From positions 3,316,614 to 3,380,613 of the forward strand of contig CAVXSP010000001.1 of the NCBI GenBank assembly GCA_963764505.1: a stretch of 64,000 bases of DNA, in the 5' to 3' direction. The notes below the pieces were generated by a model. That model saw only the letters and a list, made by a program, of their open reading frames with translations. It was not told where the DNA came from and ran no database searches. Position 1 is the stretch's first letter; each line of letters starts with the position of its first letter. Shown here one piece after another: positions 3,675 to 54,271 of this stretch. The stretch is from an uncultured Acidobacteriota bacterium. Lineage in GTDB: Bacteria; Acidobacteriota; Vicinamibacteria; Vicinamibacterales; SCN-69-37. The translations under genes were made by a program, and so were the position numbers.

Positions 3675-3685
3675 GTGCGCTGTGG

Positions 3686-3724
3686 TTTTCCACAGGAGGG
3701 GGACGGGTCTCGATCTGTGGAAAA
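3686..3724. repeat. 39-nt palindromic element, single copy (TTTTCCACAG-N19-CTGTGGAAAA), 12 nt upstream of the lysS ATG
   Basis: ttttccacaggagggggacgggtctcgatctgtggaaaa. 38/39 identical to each arm core at 39100..39196. Confidence 0.85.
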
Positions 3725-3803
3725 CCCGCTCCCGTCCCTTCAATCAGACGATTGTAGGCCGAAGCTCGGCGCCCACCGCCGGGCCGCGCCGTCGCCCGCC
3801 CTG

Positions 3804-35794: not shown

Positions 35795-37804
35795 ATGATG
35801 CTTCCCGTTCACGCCGCCGTCCGCTCGCGCCTGCAGGACGCGCTGATGGCGGCCTTCGACCTGCCTCGCGCGGAGCAGCCCGCCATCGTGATCGAGACGC
35901 CTCCGTCCCGTGCCTTCGGAGACCTCGCGGTGCCGGTGGCGTTCGAACTGGCGCGACGGCTGCGCAAGGCCCCGCGCGCGATCGCCCAGACGCTGGCGGG
36001 CAGCATCGGCGCGATCGACGGCGTCGCGCGCGTCGAGGCGGCGCCGAACGGTTACTTGAACTTCTACCTCGATCGCGCCGCCTTCCTGATCTCACGGCTC
36101 GGCCCGGAGGGCGTGGGTGAGCGACCCGCGGGCGCGACGCCCCCCGAAAAAGTGGTCGTCGAGCACACCGCGATCAACCCGAACAAGGCGGCCCACGTGG
36201 GCCACCTGCGGAACGCGGCGCTCGGCGATACGCTCGTGCGGCTGCTGCGCTTCCAGGGCGCGCACGTCGAGGTGCAGAACTACATCGACGATACGGGCGT
36301 GCAGGTGGCCGACGTTGTCGTCGGGTTCACCGAGATCGAGGGTCGAGACCTCGCGGCGGTGCGCGCCCTCGCCGCGGACCCGGCCGTCCGGTTCGACTAC
36401 TACTGTTGGGATCTCTACGCCCGCGTCACGGAGTGGTACGAAGGCGACCCCGCGCGGCTCGCCATCCGGGCGCGTGCGCTGCACGCCATCGAAGAGGGCG
36501 GGAACCCGCTCGCCGAGCTGGCTGCGGTCATCGCGGATCGCATCGTCCGCTGCCACATCCGCACCATGGGCAGGCTGAACGTCGGCTACGACCTGCTGAC
36601 CTGGGAGGGCGACATCCTGCGCCTGCACTTCTGGGCGACCGCGTTCGAGCAGCTCAAGGCGAGGGGGGCCGTGTTCCTGCAGGACGAAGGCCGTCTGAAG
36701 GGCTGCTGGGTGATGACCATCGAGGAACCCGAAAGCGCTGCCGTCGACGCCGAGAGCGAGCCCGACAACGAGCAGCGCGAGAAGGTGATCGTGCGGTCCA
36801 ACGGGACGGTCACCTACGTCGGCAAGGACATCGCCAATCAGTTCTGGAAGTTCGGTCTGCTCGGCCGCGACTTCGCGTACCGGGTCTTCGCCCGGCGCGA
36901 CGGCTGCGTGCTCTGGGCGACGACGTCGGGCGCAGACGAGGTCCACGAGCACCCGGCATTCGGCCGGGCCTCCGCCGTCTACAACGTCATCGACTCGCGC
37001 CAGGCGTATCTGCAGCAGCTGCTGAAGCAGGCGCTCGTGGCCATGGGGTATGCCGGGCAGGCGGAGCGGTCGACCCATTTCTCGTACGAGATGGTCGCGC
37101 TGACGCACGCCACGGCACGCGCGCTCGGCTTCGAGGCCGCCGCGAGCGCCGACAAGCCGTTCGTCGAGGTCTCCGGCCGGAAGGGGCTCGGCGTCAAGGC
37201 CGACGACCTGCTCGACCGGCTCGTCGAGACCGCCGCGCGCGAGGTCGCGTCGCGCAACCCCGAACTGGCCGGTGACGTCCGCCTCCGGATCGCGGAACAG
37301 ATTGGCACCGCCGCGGTCCGCTACTTCCTGATCAAGTACTCCAGGGGCAAGGTGATCGCGTTCGACATCGACGAGGCACTGAGCTTCGAGGGCGAGACCG
37401 GGCCCTACCTGCAGTACGCGGTGGTGCGCGCCAACAACATCTTCGCCAAGCTGCGCGAGCGCGACGGGGTGGACGAGTCCGGCGTCGTGAAGCTCACCGA
37501 GACGGCGGGGCGCGATCCGATCGAGCAGGGCCCGGACGCCGAGGAGCTCTGGACGCTGGCGCTCGAGGCGGGGCGTCTCGACGAGGTCGTGGACGCCAGC
37601 GTGCGGTCGCTCGAGCCCGCGCTGCTCGCGAAATACGCCTTCGGGCTCGCGCAGGCGTTCAACGCCTTCTATCACCGACAGCAGATTCTGCGGGAGGAGC
37701 GGCTCGACGCGCGCGCGTGGCGCGCGGCGGCGGTTCTGTACGTGCGACGGCAGCTCACGCGCGCACTGGATCTGATGGGCTGCGACGTGCCGGCCAGGAT
37801 GTGA
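35795..37804 (+). CDS. argS: Arginine--tRNA ligase
   Basis: 669 aa. Class I HIGH-type motif AAHVGHLRNAALGD. C-terminal anticodon-binding DALR-like region ending ...DVPARM. Confidence 0.85.
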   Translation: MMLPVHAAVRSRLQDALMAAFDLPRAEQPAIVIETPPSRAFGDLAVPVAFELARRLRKAPRAIAQTLAGSIGAIDGVARVEAAPNGYLNFYLDRAAFLISRLGPEGVGERPAGATPPEKVVVEHTAINPNKAAHVGHLRNAALGDTLVRLLRFQGAHVEVQNYIDDTGVQVADVVVGFTEIEGRDLAAVRALAADPAVRFDYYCWDLYARVTEWYEGDPARLAIRARALHAIEEGGNPLAELAAVIADRIVRCHIRTMGRLNVGYDLLTWEGDILRLHFWATAFEQLKARGAVFLQDEGRLKGCWVMTIEEPESAAVDAESEPDNEQREKVIVRSNGTVTYVGKDIANQFWKFGLLGRDFAYRVFARRDGCVLWATTSGADEVHEHPAFGRASAVYNVIDSRQAYLQQLLKQALVAMGYAGQAERSTHFSYEMVALTHATARALGFEAAASADKPFVEVSGRKGLGVKADDLLDRLVETAAREVASRNPELAGDVRLRIAEQIGTAAVRYFLIKYSRGKVIAFDIDEALSFEGETGPYLQYAVVRANNIFAKLRERDGVDESGVVKLTETAGRDPIEQGPDAEELWTLALEAGRLDEVVDASVRSLEPALLAKYAFGLAQAFNAFYHRQQILREERLDARAWRAAAVLYVRRQLTRALDLMGCDVPARM

Positions 37805-37808
37805 GTCG

Positions 37809-39107
37809 TCAGGCCGGGTCTCCGGCGTGGTCTGCCGCGAACAGCGCGACCACCTCGACGTGCGGCGTGTTGGGGAACAGATCGAACGCCTCGATCGAGC
37901 GCAGTTCGTAGCCAGCGGCGACGAGCTTCAGCCCGTCTCTTGCGAGCGTCGGCGGGTCGCACGAGACGTACACGATTCGAGGCGCACCCGCGGCCGCGAG
38001 GTGCGCCATCGCCGCAGGAGAGACGCCCGCCCGCGGCGGATCGAGCACGATGACGTCCGACCGCGGCCACTCGCCTCGACCGCCGAAGGCTTCGACCGCG
38101 AGCGACGCGACCTGGAGACGCGCGCCGTGAGCCTTCGCATTGAGCCGCAGATCCGCGACGCTGACCGGATCGCTCTCGACGGCGACGACGCGGCTGCCGT
38201 GGGCGGCGAGGGCCACCGCGAACAGGCCGACGCCCGCGTAGAGGTCGAGACACCGCTCTCCCTCCCCGACCTCCAGGACGCGCCGCACGAGCGCACCCAG
38301 AAGGAACCGGTTGCCCTGAAAGAACGATCCGGCCTGACGCCTCCACGTGACCGCCGGATCGATTGGCGGGCTGCCGCCGAACACGTCCGCGGCGGTATCG
38401 CTGACGCGGGCGCTTCCATCGACGACGACGGTCCGCAGCCCTTCGGCGCGCGTGACGCCCGTCACGCGCGGCAGCCGATCGACGCTGAGACGCAGCCCAT
38501 GGAGACGTCCGGACACACGCGGCACGACGTGCAGCACGCGCTCGGTGGCCTCGACGTTCTCCGCGATGAGGATCTCGTCGACGTCCGCCAGCCGCGCGCC
38601 GAGACCGGCGGCGAGCGCGTCGGCCGCCGGCATCGCGTCCGGGTGCAGCTGCCCCGTCGGTCCGGGGTCGCACACGACGTGGGACGCCTCGCGGAAGAAC
38701 CCGATCCGCCGGCCGCGAACGTGCAGGCGCGCGCGGAGCCGGTACCCCGACTCGGCCGAGGCCCGGACCACCGGCGCCTGCGGCAGCTCGATCCGGCCGA
38801 TGCGACGGAAGGCATCCACGATGACGTCCGCCTTGAGCTGGAGCTGGCGCGGATAGCGGATGTGCGCGTAGTGCGCGCCGCCGCACGCGGGATCGCATGC
38901 GTGGGGGCGGCGGTCCTCACTCGGCTCGATCACCTCGACGGTGTCCGCCCACGCCATGCTGCGCGTCGCGCGCTCCAGCCGCGCCAGCACCCGCTCGCCC
39001 GGCACGGCCCCGGACACGAGGACGACGCGGCCGTCGTGGCGGGCCAGCATCCGCCCGCCGGCCACCGGCCGCTCAATCACCAGATCGAGGAGAGAAGGCT
39101 TTTCCAC
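37809..39107 (-). CDS. TrmA/RlmD-family RNA (uracil-5-)-methyltransferase with N-terminal TRAM-like domain
   Basis: ORF 37809..39167. TRAM-like LDLVIERPVAGGRMLARHDGRVVLVSGAVPGERV. SAM-binding LDLYAGVGLFAVALA and VLDPPRAG, C-terminal FDLFPNTPHVE. Start is GTG 39107 (inside the palindromic repeat) or GTG 39080. Confidence 0.75.
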   Translation of the reverse strand: MEKPSLLDLVIERPVAGGRMLARHDGRVVLVSGAVPGERVLARLERATRSMAWADTVEVIEPSEDRRPHACDPACGGAHYAHIRYPRQLQLKADVIVDAFRRIGRIELPQAPVVRASAESGYRLRARLHVRGRRIGFFREASHVVCDPGPTGQLHPDAMPAADALAAGLGARLADVDEILIAENVEATERVLHVVPRVSGRLHGLRLSVDRLPRVTGVTRAEGLRTVVVDGSARVSDTAADVFGGSPPIDPAVTWRRQAGSFFQGNRFLLGALVRRVLEVGEGERCLDLYAGVGLFAVALAAHGSRVVAVESDPVSVADLRLNAKAHGARLQVASLAVEAFGGRGEWPRSDVIVLDPPRAGVSPAAMAHLAAAGAPRIVYVSCDPPTLARDGLKLVAAGYELRSIEAFDLFPNTPHVEVVALFAADHAGDPA

Positions 39108-39196
39108 AGGAGGGGGACGGGTCTCGATTTGTGGAAAACTCGGCCCCCAGGACCGAGTTTTCCACAAATCGAGACCCGTCCCCCTCCTGTGGAAAA
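39100..39196. repeat. Perfect 44-bp inverted repeat with 9-nt spacer (two inverted copies of the 39-nt TTTTCCACA...TGTGGAAAA element)
   Basis: Arm 39100-39143 ttttccacaggagggggacgggtctcgatttgtggaaaactcgg. Spacer cccccagga. Arm 39153-39196 is its exact reverse complement (checked base by base). Confidence 0.95.
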
Positions 39197-39853
39197 CTAC
39201 CCGACGTCCAGGGTCGGGAGCCCGTAGAGGTCCCTGACGAAGCGATCGAGCGTGACGTCGATGGCGCGGCGCCAGGCGTCCTCGTCCAGGCGATCCCGAA
39301 AGGCGGCGAGATCCGTCGAGGCCGCCTTCGAGAGCGTGTCCATCGCCGGAGCGTCTGTCGCGGCACGGGCCGCGAGGAGCAGCCGCCCGTCCAGCGCCTG
39401 CAACTGCGCGGTCACCTCGCCGCGCGCGGGCCCGCGCGCCTTCGCCGCGACCTCCCGCAGCGCGGCCAGCTCCTCCAGCACTCCATCGATCGTCCGCAGG
39501 AACGGTTCCGGCAGGTCGAGCCGACCGGCCACGCGGCCCAGCCGGTCGATTGCGCGATCGATCCGCTTGACCGGCGACGGCGCGCGCCGGGACGCGGCGG
39601 GCTCGTCCGGCGGCTCATCGGCCGGACCCGTCCGCGGCACGCCCACCGCGCGCCGCCAGCTCTCGTAGATCTCCCGGACGTCGCTTTCGCAGAACTCGAT
39701 CCGGAGCGGCCGACGCGCGCGGCCGAGCCGATGCCGCTCGGCCTTGACCTCGATGCCGCGGAAGACGATCGTCAGCGGGACGCCGGCCTCCGCCCACGAG
39801 CGCACGAGCTCGAAGCCGGCGCCCACGATGCGCACCAGGTGCCCGCCGTTCAC
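39197..39853 (-). CDS. Hypothetical protein (218 aa)
   Basis: GTG start 13 codons after the birA stop in the same frame. Pro-rich centre, helical C-terminal half. No recognisable motif. Confidence 0.5.
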   Translation of the reverse strand: MNGGHLVRIVGAGFELVRSWAEAGVPLTIVFRGIEVKAERHRLGRARRPLRIEFCESDVREIYESWRRAVGVPRTGPADEPPDEPAASRRAPSPVKRIDRAIDRLGRVAGRLDLPEPFLRTIDGVLEELAALREVAAKARGPARGEVTAQLQALDGRLLLAARAATDAPAMDTLSKAASTDLAAFRDRLDEDAWRRAIDVTLDRFVRDLYGLPTLDVG

Positions 39854-53849: not shown

Positions 53850-54170
53850 TCACAACGAGGCGATGGGGTCGCCGTCGGCCCCGGCCTCCTCGATCGCCCT
53901 GTTGATCAGGTCCTTCAGCTCCTTGCCCGGCTTGAAGTACGGCACCTTCTTGGGCGGCACGTCGACCTTGTCCCCCGTCTTCGGATTCCGGCCCTTGCGC
54001 GGCTCGCGCTGACGGAGCCGGAAGCTGCCGAACCCCCGCAACTCGATCTTCTCGCCCCGATGCAGCGCGTCCACGATGCTCTTGAAGACGGTGTCGACGA
54101 TGACCTCCGAGTCCTTCTTGGTGAGGTCGGAGACCCGCGAGACTTCCTCTACGAGTTCGGCTTTGGTCAT
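53850..54170 (-). CDS. HU/IHF-family DNA-binding protein (integration host factor-like)
   Basis: Start MTKAELVEEVSRVSDLTKKDSEVIVDTVF...GFGSFRLRQREPRKGRNPKTGDKVDVP. 106 aa. Confidence 0.85.
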   Translation of the reverse strand: MTKAELVEEVSRVSDLTKKDSEVIVDTVFKSIVDALHRGEKIELRGFGSFRLRQREPRKGRNPKTGDKVDVPPKKVPYFKPGKELKDLINRAIEEAGADGDPIASL

Positions 54171-54183
54171 AGACGAGGGCTGC

Positions 54184-54270
54184 GGGCTCTGGACGCTGGG
54201 CTCTGGGCTCTGGGCTTCGGGCGACATCGAAGCCCAGAGCCCAGAGCCCAGAGCCCGAAGCCCAGAGCCC
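54184..54270. repeat. Hairpin built from inverted arrays of 7-nt tandem repeats (GGGCTCT / AGAGCCC); core 22-bp perfect stem
   Basis: 54198-54219 gggctctgggctctgggcttcg pairs perfectly with 54228-54249 cgaagcccagagcccagagccc (8-nt loop). Extra repeat units lie on both flanks. Located between the rpsA stop and the IHF start. Confidence 0.85.
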
Positions 54271-54271
54271 T

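What the first reader, a model, noticed from the sequence alone, without database searches (positions are those of the whole stretch)
39100..39196. Perfect 44-bp inverted repeat (97 nt) covering the start region of the rRNA/tRNA methyltransferase gene
Arms 39100-39143 and 39153-39196 are exact reverse complements around a 9-nt spacer. Each arm is itself a hairpin-capable unit (TTTTCCACAG/A - N19 - T/CTGTGGAAAA) containing GGAGGGGGACGGG or its complement CCCGTCCCCCTCC. The best candidate start of the downstream gene (GTG 39107, giving VEKPSLLDLVIE... ahead of the TRAM domain) lies inside the proximal arm, so a read-through transcript would bury it in a 44-bp helix. The element abuts the stop of the upstream gene (39197). 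A near-identical unit sits in the lysS leader. A perfect palindrome this long in a non-mobile context suggests a REP/MITE-like element or a strong regulatory/insulator structure. I do not recognise the sequence as a described motif.
Basis: seen in the sequence. Interest (0 to 1): 0.65.

Follow-up and report, generated by a model that had tools for sequence, protein, structure and literature searches.

The report
Nested palindromic repeat at a gene junction
The 97-base perfect hairpin is one copy of an undescribed family of small, nested palindromic repeats scattered through soil Acidobacteriota (Vicinamibacterales) genomes. This copy has sat for a long time exactly between one gene's stop codon and the next gene's start codon, and it supplies that start codon.

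Summary
Window 39100-39196 is a perfect 44-bp-arm palindrome (47 bp with one mismatch), and a near-identical 39-nt unit sits in the lysS leader.

It is neither a one-off regulator nor a classical MITE. It belongs to a dispersed repeat family built from two modules, A (GAG-TTTTCCACAG) and B (GGGGACGGGTCTCGAT), nested around a variable loop. I found the family at 3 loci of one Acidobacteriota MAG and on 35 soil-metagenome contigs, in convergent, tandem and divergent gene contexts, without target-site duplications.

The copy at the methyltransferase junction is old. Seven related lineages carry an element at the same stop|start gap, and changes in one arm are always mirrored in the other. One nested lineage lacks it. 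The lysS copy is a lineage-specific 72-nt insertion.

The methyltransferase GTG start lies in the 3' arm and the upstream stop codon abuts the 5' arm.

Best reading: a REP/BIME/REPIN-like selfish palindrome whose RNA hairpin sequesters the start codon. Translation is probably coupled to termination of the upstream ORF or to RNase III cleavage (inferred).

No transposase was found. The arms match the DnaA-box consensus perfectly; the significance is unknown.

It is a new member of a known kind, of moderate interest.

The parts
39100..39196 (.). Complete nested palindrome (doublet): A - x - B - A' - loop - A - B' - x' - A'
39100..39109 (.). Outer arm, module A (TTTTCCACAG on +). It contains the complement of the methyltransferase start codon and matches the DnaA-box consensus TTWTNCACA.
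39110..39128 (.). Module B with linker x (GA-GGGGGACGGGTCTCGAT)
39129..39138 (.). Inner arm, module A' (TTGTGGAAAA)
39139..39157 (.). Central linker CTCGG-CCCCCAGGA-CCGAG. CTC/GAG is conserved in the family; the rest varies between copies.
39158..39196 (.). Second 39-nt unit, the exact reverse complement of 39100-39138
39105..39107 (-). GTG, the probable start codon of the TRAM/U5 RNA methyltransferase, inside the outer arm
37809..39107 (-). RNA (uracil-5) methyltransferase gene (PF05958), 432 aa counted from GTG 39107
39197..39199 (-). TAG stop of the upstream 218-aa gene, directly abutting the palindrome
39197..39853 (-). Upstream conserved hypothetical gene (no Pfam family), syntenic in all relatives examined
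3675..3746 (-). Lineage-specific 72-nt insertion between the conserved -10-like CTACAATCGTC and the lysS ATG. It is a degenerate copy: B-remnant, A, B', A', then a CCACAG stub.
3686..3724 (+). 39-nt unit of the lysS-leader copy (1 mismatch to the 39100 unit)
3747..3757 (-). CTACAATCGTC, a -10-like block conserved upstream of lysS in L121-L123. In those relatives it lies 7-9 nt from the ATG.

Best explanation
WHAT IT IS (shown). The palindrome is one copy of a dispersed family of nested palindromic repeats in soil Vicinamibacterales (Acidobacteriota). The family is a mosaic of two short modules, A = (GAG)TTTTCCACAG and B = GGGGACGGGTCTCGAT. They alternate in inverted orientation around a variable centre, like onion layers. 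In kind it is a REP/BIME/REPIN-like small non-coding repeat, not a DDE-type MITE: it makes no target-site duplication.

HISTORY (shown). The window genome holds an old copy and a young copy. The old one sits in the stop|start gap between a conserved hypothetical gene and the RNA methyltransferase, and relatives carry an element at the same place. The young one is inserted between the -10-like box and the ATG of lysS.

HOW IT SPREADS (inferred). It probably spreads as single-stranded hairpin DNA, through a HUH/tyrosine transposase of the RAYT/TIRYT type or some other hairpin-targeting activity. No such enzyme was found in the sequence I could read.

WHAT IT DOES HERE (inferred). The valS-birA-hyp-methyltransferase genes are co-directional with tiny gaps, so the element is transcribed as part of the operon. 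It folds into a roughly 45-bp perfect RNA helix. The upstream stop codon lies at the 5' foot of the helix. The GUG start lies 5-7 bp inside the 3' foot.

Methyltransferase translation should therefore be blocked unless the foot is opened. A ribosome terminating at the upstream stop codon could do this (termination-reinitiation coupling). In the element-free orthologue the two codons are only 13 nt apart and no Shine-Dalgarno is visible. Alternatively the helix could be cut by RNase III.

The perfect symmetry of the arms is kept either by selection for pairing or by arm-to-arm correction in hairpin DNA.
For: Family and dispersal:
- Three units occur in the window, against 0.00 expected by chance.
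- An exact 20-mer of the core is found in only one of 185,579 species genomes, an Acidobacteriota MAG. It occurs there at 3 loci, all doublets, in gene contexts different from the window.
- 35 soil-metagenome contigs carry the family.
- 25 distinct doublets have 15-57-nt arms (24 of them 23 nt or longer) with 0-1 mismatch and loops of 0-83 nt.
- Copies lie between convergent, tandem and divergent genes.
- Short-read contigs break inside the element.

Young copy:
- lysS relatives at 85, 84 and 81% amino-acid identity have CTACAATCGTC + 7-9 nt + ATG. The window has 72 extra nucleotides there and no duplication.

Old copy:
- An element sits at the same junction in L115 (perfect 46-nt arms), L116-118, L120, L124, L125 and L126. 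It is absent in L119.
- The empty lineage groups with the window, excluding element-bearing L120 and L124, in 98 of 100 bootstraps.
- Across four orthologous copies, 31 of 44 pairs are invariant. Four pairs changed on both sides, including transversions, and none changed on one side only.
- The element is more conserved than the flanking coding DNA: 88% against 69 and 77% for L115.

Geometry:
- GTG in the A' arm is the start in the window, L115, L116, L124 and L125. It aligns with the ATG of L119.
- The upstream stop abuts or overlaps the 5' arm in every case.
- The same GTG-GAA-AAC opens an ABC ATPase ORF (L112; ABC_tran domain from residue 23). It probably also opens an AlkZ-like ORF (L097).

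Precedents:
- REPINs are two inverted REPs forming a hairpin (PMC3337134 abstract).
- Acidobacteria have RAYT-like 'TIRYT' genes flanked by TIR repeat families arranged as dimers and clusters, some carrying a GGGGWSAS motif (PMC3733652).
- Correia elements bind RNase III and are cut or protected by it (PMC2649163 abstract).
Against: - No RAYT, TIRYT or IS200-like gene was found by tblastn in 314 kb of held sequence. No transposase appears among the called genes around either window copy.
- Copy number per genome is unknown and may be low: 2 loci in about 72 kb, and at least 3 loci in the MAG by an exact 20-mer.
- There is no conserved GTAG or CGTC end tag.
- Deep positional conservation with perfect arms could instead mean a dedicated function.
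- The coupling and RNase III steps rest on geometry alone. No transcript or cleavage data exist.
- The lysS leader copy does not fold significantly better than shuffles (z = -1.35).
- The family census is biased by the exact patterns used for the two collection scans.
Confidence: 0.6

Rival explanations
1. It is a dedicated, non-mobile cis-regulatory RNA: an intercistronic hairpin selected to control the methyltransferase. The other copies would be members of a regulon sharing the same RNA-binding factor or RNase.
For: - The position is conserved in seven lineages, with strictly compensatory changes.
- The element is more conserved than the neighbouring coding DNA.
- The stop-at-5'-foot, start-in-3'-foot geometry is kept even where the internal architecture differs (L124, L125).
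Against: - Copies flank unrelated genes in all orientations, including divergent promoter gaps.
- The lysS copy is missing in close relatives.
- Loops are hypervariable and carry other nested palindromes.
- No G-U intermediates are seen, which RNA-level selection would tolerate.
- No Rfam family matches.
Confidence: 0.12
2. It is a DnaA-binding DNA element. Each unit carries two inverted perfect DnaA boxes (TTTTCCACA), so the copies would titrate or recruit DnaA. This would resemble datA or DARS, or a host-factor site like the DnaA box in the IS50 outside end.
For: - All 6 matches to TTWTNCACA in the 64-kb window are in the element, against 0.08 expected for TTTTCCACA.
- All 95 consensus matches in 271 kb of held Acidobacteriota DNA lie within 90 nt of a GGGACRGG core, i.e. 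in the elements. None lies elsewhere.
- L120 has TTATCCACA in an arm that has lost its pairing partner.
- TTTTCCACA is a species-specific DnaA box (the cyanobacterial one) in origin-prediction work. This rests on my own knowledge and on the hits, which I did not read in full.
Against: - The conserved A module is 13 nt (GAG...G), longer than a DnaA box.
- Natural variants break the consensus: TGTTCCACA, TGTCCCACA, CCGCCACAG, ATTTGCACA.
- In the inner arms, TTTT can be read as the T-tract next to a short GC stem, paired with an A-tract.
- The DnaA box of this clade's oriC is unknown.
- No binding data exist.
Confidence: 0.1
3. It is a bidirectional intrinsic terminator or transcriptional insulator cassette. 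The innermost part, AAAA-CTC..GAG-TTTT, would stop RNA polymerase in both directions.
For: - The centre is an A-tract, a short GC stem and a T-tract in most copies. Nested palindromes in some loops have the same layout.
- Five loci fill the gap between convergent stop codons.
Against: - The terminator scan finds no site in the element: there are only 4 T, and the central stems are 3-8 bp.
- Copies sit inside operons directly before start codons, in 5' leaders and between divergent genes, where termination would be harmful or irrelevant.
- The outer arms have the opposite polarity, with T-tract 5' and A-tract 3'.
Confidence: 0.08
4. It is a classical MITE mobilised in trans by a DDE transposase (for example Tn3-, IS630- or IS5-like).
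For: - It has long terminal inverted repeats and A/T-rich flanks (..TAA|GGGG ... CCCC|TTA..).
- From memory, its ends resemble Tn3-family ends (GGGG...GGAA..AAAAC).
Against: - No direct duplication flanks more than 20 inspected copies or the filled lysS site.
- There is no blastn match in 72,556 plasmids and none in viral contigs.
- No longer parent element was seen.
- The junctions between modules vary in length by 3-7 nt.
Confidence: 0.05

Closest known systems
REPINs / REP-RAYT systems (Pseudomonas, Enterobacteria)
   Same: - Two hairpin-capable units of about 40 nt in inverted orientation, separated by a short spacer, fold into one long hairpin.
- Copies are extragenic and dispersed, with degenerate remnants.
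- Copies are inherited vertically at fixed sites for long periods.
- There is no target-site duplication.
   Different: - No RAYT was found.
- There is no conserved GTAG tag.
- Copy number appears low.
- Units are built from two modules that nest recursively.
- Many copies lack the outer arm.
- The host phylum is Acidobacteriota.
BIMEs (bacterial interspersed mosaic elements of E. coli)
   Same: It is a mosaic of short palindromic units in alternating orientation, separated by other short motifs. It occurs within operons and between convergent genes.
   Different: - The sequences are different.
- The arrangement here is concentric (a palindrome of palindromes), not a tandem Y/Z array.
- No IHF or gyrase sites are known.
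TIR repeat families flanking RAYT-like 'TIRYT' genes, including an Acidobacteria-specific TIRYT group (Di Nocera et al. 2013, PMC3733652)
   Same: - The host phylum is the same.
- The repeats occur as dimers or clusters.
- Some of those TIRs are doubly palindromic.
- Some carry a G-run motif, GGGGWSAS. Here the element ends are GGGGACGG.
   Different: - GGGGACGG misses the published consensus at one position.
- The published TIR sequences appear only in a figure I could not read.
- No TIRYT gene was found next to any copy in 314 kb.
Correia / CREE (NEMIS) elements of Neisseria, and ERIC elements
   Same: These are small non-coding palindromic repeats that are co-transcribed with neighbouring genes. 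Their long RNA hairpin is a substrate for RNase III and alters expression of the adjacent genes (PMC2649163 abstract).
   Different: - Correia elements make TA duplications and carry IHF sites and promoter halves.
- They have no sequence similarity to this family.
- RNase III cleavage is untested here.
DnaA-box clusters (datA, DARS) and the DnaA box in the IS50/Tn5 outside end
   Same: There are four perfect consensus 9-mers within 97 bp. A transposon end that uses DnaA as a host factor is a known precedent (own knowledge).
   Different: - Here the boxes are halves of a base-paired stem.
- Variants that break the consensus are tolerated.
- Binding is untested.

Membership tests
REPIN (REP doublet forming a hairpin) | Two REP units in inverted orientation, separated by a short spacer, able to fold into one hairpin | tested here: met
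   two 39-nt units separated by a 19-nt linker, giving 44-47-bp arms. 25 further doublets were found in related DNA.
REPIN (REP doublet forming a hairpin) | A cognate RAYT (HUH/Y1 transposase) in the same genome, itself flanked by the REP units | not testable with these tools
   tblastn with 9 RAYT, TIRYT and IS200 queries gave nothing at E<0.3 in 314 kb.
REPIN (REP doublet forming a hairpin) | A population of many near-identical copies within one genome | tested here: inconclusive
   2 loci lie in about 72 kb of the source contig. At least 3 loci in MAG CAVRVJ01 match an exact 20-mer. The total per genome is unknown.
Classical tagged REP (GTAG or CGTC super-families, PMC3733652) | An unpaired GTAG or CGTC tetranucleotide at one end; an 8-13-bp stem; a 4-5-nt loop; a short tail | tested here: not met
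   Flanks vary. CGTC occurs only inside module B, where it is base-paired in the doublet. Unit stems are 10-13 bp with 19-21-nt loops.
BIME | Palindromic units in alternating orientation, interspersed with other conserved short motifs | tested here: met
   A and A' alternate, with B, B' or a loop between them. Up to five layers are seen in L101, L098 and L111. This is a resemblance of architecture only; the sequences are unrelated.
MITE (DDE-transposase derived) | Terminal inverted repeats plus a direct target-site duplication of fixed length | tested here: not met
   No duplication appears at more than 20 boundaries or in the filled-versus-empty lysS comparison.
MITE (DDE-transposase derived) | A longer autonomous IS sharing the same termini | tested here: inconclusive
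   None was found in plasmids, viral contigs or the 38 genome and metagenome loci. Complete genomes were not searched.
Intrinsic (Rho-independent) terminator | A GC-rich stem directly followed by a run of U | tested here: not met
   One search finds no terminator-like site inside 39100-39196. The internal T-run is only 4 nt. The one hit nearby (39218-39200) merely borrows the element's first TTTT.
DnaA-box cluster (datA/DARS-like) | Several 9-mers matching TTWTNCACA close together | tested here: met
   Four perfect TTTTCCACA occur in 97 bp and two more at lysS, against 0.08 expected per window.
DnaA-box cluster (datA/DARS-like) | Binding by DnaA, and the same box type used in the organism's oriC | not testable with these tools
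   No oriC or dnaA locus of this clade was available, and there are no binding data.
Any Rfam RNA family | A score at or above the family's gathering threshold | tested here: not met
   One search gave 0 matches in the window. One search gave only sub-threshold miRNA-precursor models (60 bits against a threshold of 90), which is the generic response to a long perfect hairpin.
Integron attC site | R''/R' core sites (RYYYAAC ... GTTRRRY), extrahelical bases, and an array of cassettes | tested here: not met
   Read directly from the sequence: GTTTTCC does not fit GTTRRRY, the arms are perfectly paired, and the neighbours are housekeeping genes in conserved synteny.

The most novel reading that the evidence does not exclude
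The outer layer of the element, (T)GAG-TTTTCCACAG ... CTGTGGAAAAC-TC(A), may be a portable 'stop-hairpin-start' junction. Read in either direction, it can offer a stop codon at the 5' foot and a GUG-GAA-AAC start in the 3' foot. The helix brings the two codons together, so that a terminating ribosome opens the foot and reinitiates without a Shine-Dalgarno sequence. This would be a shunt-like translational-coupling cassette that has spread between genes.

Support so far:
- The methyltransferase uses this GTG in five lineages.
- An ABC ATPase (L112) and probably an AlkZ-like gene (L097) start at the same GTG.
- In L115 and L097 the stop codon is the TGA of TGAG.

A second unexcluded reading is that the family acts as a genome-wide set of DnaA boxes.
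Probability: 0.15. Interest if true: 0.7.

Novelty: new member of a known kind. Interest (0 to 1): 0.45.

Why it matters
Vicinamibacteria are among the most abundant and least studied soil bacteria, and no repeat family has been described for them.

The family matters in three practical ways:
- It breaks short-read assemblies.
- It misleads gene callers, producing both truncated and over-extended starts for the methyltransferase.
- It rewires gene junctions: it supplies start codons, and at lysS it pushes the promoter 72 nt away from the start codon.

If the mobilising enzyme is a RAYT/TIRYT, the known range of REPIN-like systems would extend to another phylum.

If the stop-hairpin-start geometry is functional, the element would be a natural module for Shine-Dalgarno-independent translational coupling.

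The perfect DnaA-box arms raise a testable question: do such repeats influence the DnaA pool?

Tried and rejected
- **Arms-only scan.** TTTTCCACA-N19-23-TGTGGAAAA in viral contigs gave 74 hits. All were unrelated AT-rich DnaA-box clusters or other hairpins, none with the GGGGACGGG core. The pattern is not specific, so I did not use it on the larger collections.
- **Rfam.** Nothing reached threshold. The miRNA hits are long-hairpin artefacts.
- **Transposase hunt.** tblastn with IS200 TnpA and E. coli RAYT, and then with seven RAYT/TIRYT sequences taken from PMC3733652 Additional file 5, gave no credible hit in 285-314 kb.
- **Tn3-family inverted repeat.** The resemblance is recalled from memory. 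It is rejected because there is no match in 72,556 plasmids and no 5-bp duplications.
- **TA-duplicating MITE (IS630/Correia-like).** Many ends read ..CCCC(C/T)TA, but many others read TG, TC or TT, so there is no consistent duplication.
- **attC site, CRISPR repeat, terminator.**
- **GTAG tag.** GGTAG precedes the window copy and the L124 copy, but this comes from a G followed by a TAG stop codon and is absent elsewhere.
- **Protein search with the translated palindrome.** Considered as a way to census copies. Not run, because each arm encodes only about 10 residues, too few for significance against 5.8 billion proteins.
- **RAYT protein search to find the source genome's transposase.** Considered but not run, because only the best 120 hits are listed and the chance of seeing this genome was negligible.
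- **lysS leader fold.** Not significantly more stable than shuffles.
Full report
**1.
Window 39100-39196 is a palindrome. The repeat finder reports arms 39100-39146 and 39150-39196, 47 nt, 98% complementary, 3 nt apart.

It is the longest inverted repeat in the window. As RNA it folds to -125.4 kcal/mol for the 171-nt region, z = -13.5, with 0 of 200 shuffles as stable.

Each arm is a 39-nt unit, TTTTCCACAG-GAGGGGGACGGGTCTCGAT-TTGTGGAAAA, that can fold on its own. The unit occurs three times in the window: 3686-3724 (+), 39100-39138 (+) and 39158-39196 (-). Chance expectation is 0.00.

The window is about 70% G+C. It comes from a 1.28-Mb metagenome contig, ENA ERZ25039539 contig_16475. Close homologues of its proteins are named Vicinamibacterales, a group of Acidobacteriota.

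**2. The flanking genes.**
All relevant genes are on the - strand in the order valS, birA, a 218-aa hypothetical gene (no Pfam family), then an RNA uracil-5 methyltransferase (PF05958). argS converges on them.

The TAG of the hypothetical gene (39199-39197) touches the palindrome.

The methyltransferase ORF is open up to 39167, and the database gene call starts at ATG 39050. That call removes the invariant ERPVAGGR motif, which every homologue has 10-13 residues after its start. GTG 39107 gives 12 residues before ERPVAGG. It aligns codon-for-codon with the ATG of the element-free orthologue L119.

**3. It is a family, not a singleton.**
An exact 20-mer of the core matched only one of 185,579 species genomes. 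That genome is the MAG 'uncultured Acidobacteriota bacterium MFD02199.bin.2.202', where it occurs at three loci on three contigs. All three are doublets in gene contexts unrelated to those of the window.

A 21-mer of the other arm found 35 soil-metagenome contigs.

The common architecture is GGGGACGGGTCTCGAT-CTGTGGAAAACTC, then a variable loop, then GAGTTTTCCACAG-ATCGAGACCCGTCCCC. An outer TTTTCCACAG/CTGTGGAAAA layer is optional and present on about 40% of ends. It is joined through 3-7 variable bases.

I call the modules A (GAGTTTTCCACAG) and B (GGGGACGGGTCTCGAT). They alternate in inverted orientation like onion layers. L101 and L098 show four to five layers, L111 shows a tandem reiteration, and some loops contain other small palindromes.

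Twenty-five distinct doublets have arms of 15-57 nt (24 of them 23 nt or longer) with 0 or 1 mismatch.

Nothing related was found in Rfam, in 72,556 plasmids, in viral contigs or as a sequence string in the literature.

**4. Where copies sit.**
A simple GC3-based gene finder places copies in three kinds of gap:
- between convergent genes (L077, L088/L091, L100, L113), often filling the whole gap;
- between tandem genes (the window junction, L087/L105);
- between divergent genes (L082/L104, L095).

Ends are often flanked by A/T-rich bases, stop codons or -10-like hexamers. No direct duplication is present. Short-read contigs frequently end inside the element, as expected for a repeat.

**5. The lysS copy is young.**
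In three relatives (LysS 85, 84 and 81% identical) the nusB-lysS gap reads CTACAATCGTC + 7-9 nt + ATG. The window has the same CTACAATCGTC, then 72 extra nucleotides (3675-3746), then the ATG.

The insert is a degenerate doublet: a B remnant, A, B', A' and a CCACAG stub. It has no target duplication.

One of those relatives (L122) comes from the same sample as L115, which does carry the element at the methyltransferase junction. The two loci therefore have different histories.

This leader does not fold better than shuffled sequence.

**6. The methyltransferase copy is old.**
An element lies in the same stop|start gap in seven related lineages:

| Locus | Methyltransferase identity to window | State of the element |
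|---|---|---|
| L115 | 70% | perfect 46-nt arms |
| L116-118 | 66% | contigs break inside it |
| L120 | 60% | outer arm TTATCCACAG; other outer arm decayed |
| L124 | 57% | B*-A-inner palindrome-A'-B*' |
| L125 (GCA_044448305.1) | 60% | B**-A-inner palindrome-A'-B**' |
| L126 | 63% | ..A'-B*' (contig starts inside the element) |
| L119 | 62% | absent: TAG + 13 nt + ATG |

L119's empty site is backed by a second sample whose called genes leave the same 13-nt gap (no DNA held). In a bootstrapped NJ tree, the empty lineage groups with the window and excludes element-bearing L120 and L124 in 98 of 100 replicates. Loss is therefore the simplest reading (inference).

Among four alignable orthologous copies, 31 of 44 pairs never vary. 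Four vary on both sides, including C:G to G:C to T:A, and none varies on one side only. The unpaired cells all come from L120's decayed outer arm.

The element is more conserved than the coding DNA around it: 88% against 69 and 77% for L115, and 90% of aligned bases against 62 and 66% for L120.

Two clades carry two different internal architectures. The outer A...A' pair, with the GTG start in A', is common to both.

**7. What it most likely is and does.**
*Identity (well supported).* It is a dispersed, nested palindromic repeat of the REP/BIME/REPIN kind, with an old fixed copy and a recent insertion in the same genome.

*Spread (inferred).* The lack of duplications, the hairpin structure and the nesting of hairpins inside hairpin centres point to single-strand hairpin chemistry, either HUH/Y1 as in RAYTs or an IS110-like activity. 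A paper on tagged REPs reports RAYT-like 'TIRYT' genes in Acidobacteria. These are flanked by TIR repeat families that occur as dimers and clusters, some with a GGGGWSAS motif (PMC3733652). That is the nearest lead. I found no such gene in 314 kb and could not read the rest of the genome.

*Local effect (inferred from geometry).* The operon transcript would contain a helix of about 45 bp. The upstream stop codon is at its 5' foot and the GUG is 5-7 bp inside its 3' foot. No Shine-Dalgarno is visible either here or at the empty site, where stop and start are 13 nt apart.

A ribosome terminating at the stop would unwind the foot and could reinitiate at the GUG. Alternatively, RNase III could cut the helix, as reported for Correia elements (PMC2649163 abstract).

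Because the element supplies the start codon, only a precise deletion is viable. That alone could explain its persistence.

The strict Watson-Crick symmetry, with no wobble intermediates, fits arm-to-arm correction in DNA at least as well as RNA-level selection. The sample is small.

**8. Rivals.**
- *Dedicated regulator.* Positional conservation favours it. The scattered contexts and the young lysS insertion count against it.
- *DnaA-box element.* The arms are perfect TTWTNCACA boxes. All 6 in the window and all 95 in 271 kb lie in the elements, and L120 keeps TTATCCACA in an unpaired arm. Against this, the conserved module is 13 nt, consensus-breaking variants are tolerated, and the inner TTTT can be read as a T-tract beside a small GC stem.
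- *Bidirectional terminator.* The centre has the A-tract/stem/T-tract layout. However, the stems are short, there are only 4 T, the scan finds nothing, and many copies sit where termination would be harmful.
- *DDE-type MITE.* No duplications and no parent element were found.
- *Assembly artefact.* Excluded, because independent long- and short-read assemblies carry the family.

**9. An extra observation.**
The GTG-GAA-AAC of an outer A' arm also opens an ABC ATPase ORF. In L112 no other in-frame start precedes the conserved IEVRHL strand, and the ABC_tran domain begins at residue 23. It probably also opens an AlkZ-like glycosylase ORF in L097, whose stop codon is the TGA of the TGAG at the foot of a second copy. 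In L115 the upstream stop is likewise the TGA of TGAG-TTTTCC. The outer layer can thus provide both a stop and a start. This is the basis of the 'portable junction' reading, to which I give about 15%.

**10. Verdict.**
It is a new family of a known kind of element, found in a little-studied phylum. Two features deserve follow-up: the conserved stop-hairpin-start geometry and the DnaA-box arms. The mobilising enzyme and any function remain unproven.

Scores: interest 0.45; novelty, new member of a known kind.

Noticed in passing
window 54176-54271: A second, unrelated long hairpin: 44-nt arms, 86% complementary, built from runs of GGGCTCT/AGAGCCC heptamers. It too is wedged between the stop (about 54273) and the start (54169-54171) of two - strand genes, in a locally low-GC stretch.
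   Followed up: partly
L081/L083 5503-5545; L088 1815-1869; L091 7074-7128; L104 about 716-790: Loops of family copies contain other nested palindromes: GACCTCTGAGGT..ACCTCAGAGGTC flanked by AAAAC/GTTTT, and AAAAAGACGTCGGGTGTC..GACACCCGACGTCTTTTT. At least two further small hairpin families therefore insert into, or grow inside, this one.
   Followed up: no
window 3747-3757 (- strand); L121 about 2480, L122 about 2480, L123 about 2480: lysS of this clade has a conserved CTACAATCGTC (-10-like) only 7-9 nt upstream of the ATG. This implies a very short or absent leader. The window's insertion moves it 72 nt away.
   Followed up: partly
L112 45-812 (+); L097 281-1357 (-): The GTG-GAA-AAC of an outer arm is the only plausible start of an ABC ATPase ORF (L112), and probably of an AlkZ-like glycosylase ORF (L097). 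The L097 ORF is bracketed by two copies of the element, and its TGA stop is the TGAG foot of the other copy.
   Followed up: partly
window 39050 versus 39107; L115 6001: Gene callers mis-start the methyltransferase. P0001 starts at ATG 39050 and loses conserved residues. P0002 runs into the palindrome, so its N-terminus MSNCGKLGPSPSFPQFDTRPPPVEN is translated repeat.
   Followed up: yes
L116-L118, L126, L079, L084, L086, L094, L101, L108, L110, L112 (contig ends): Short-read metagenome contigs end inside the element, which fits a multi-copy or hairpin-forming repeat that breaks assemblies.
   Followed up: no
L122 4003-4119: A run of CCGATGCAT/G-like short repeats lies in the gap after lysS in a relative. 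The window has no such gap.
   Followed up: no
window 39200-39218 (- strand): A terminator-like mini hairpin (CCCGAC..GTCGGG) sits at the very end of the upstream gene. Its T-run is the TAG plus the first TTTT of the palindrome. One such site was found against 0.3 expected, so it is probably chance.
   Followed up: no
L114 11247-12739 (= window argS 35795-37804): The source's gene calls split argS into 150-aa and 320-aa pieces, although the window has one intact 669-aa ORF. This looks like a gene-calling quirk. I did not check it.
   Followed up: no
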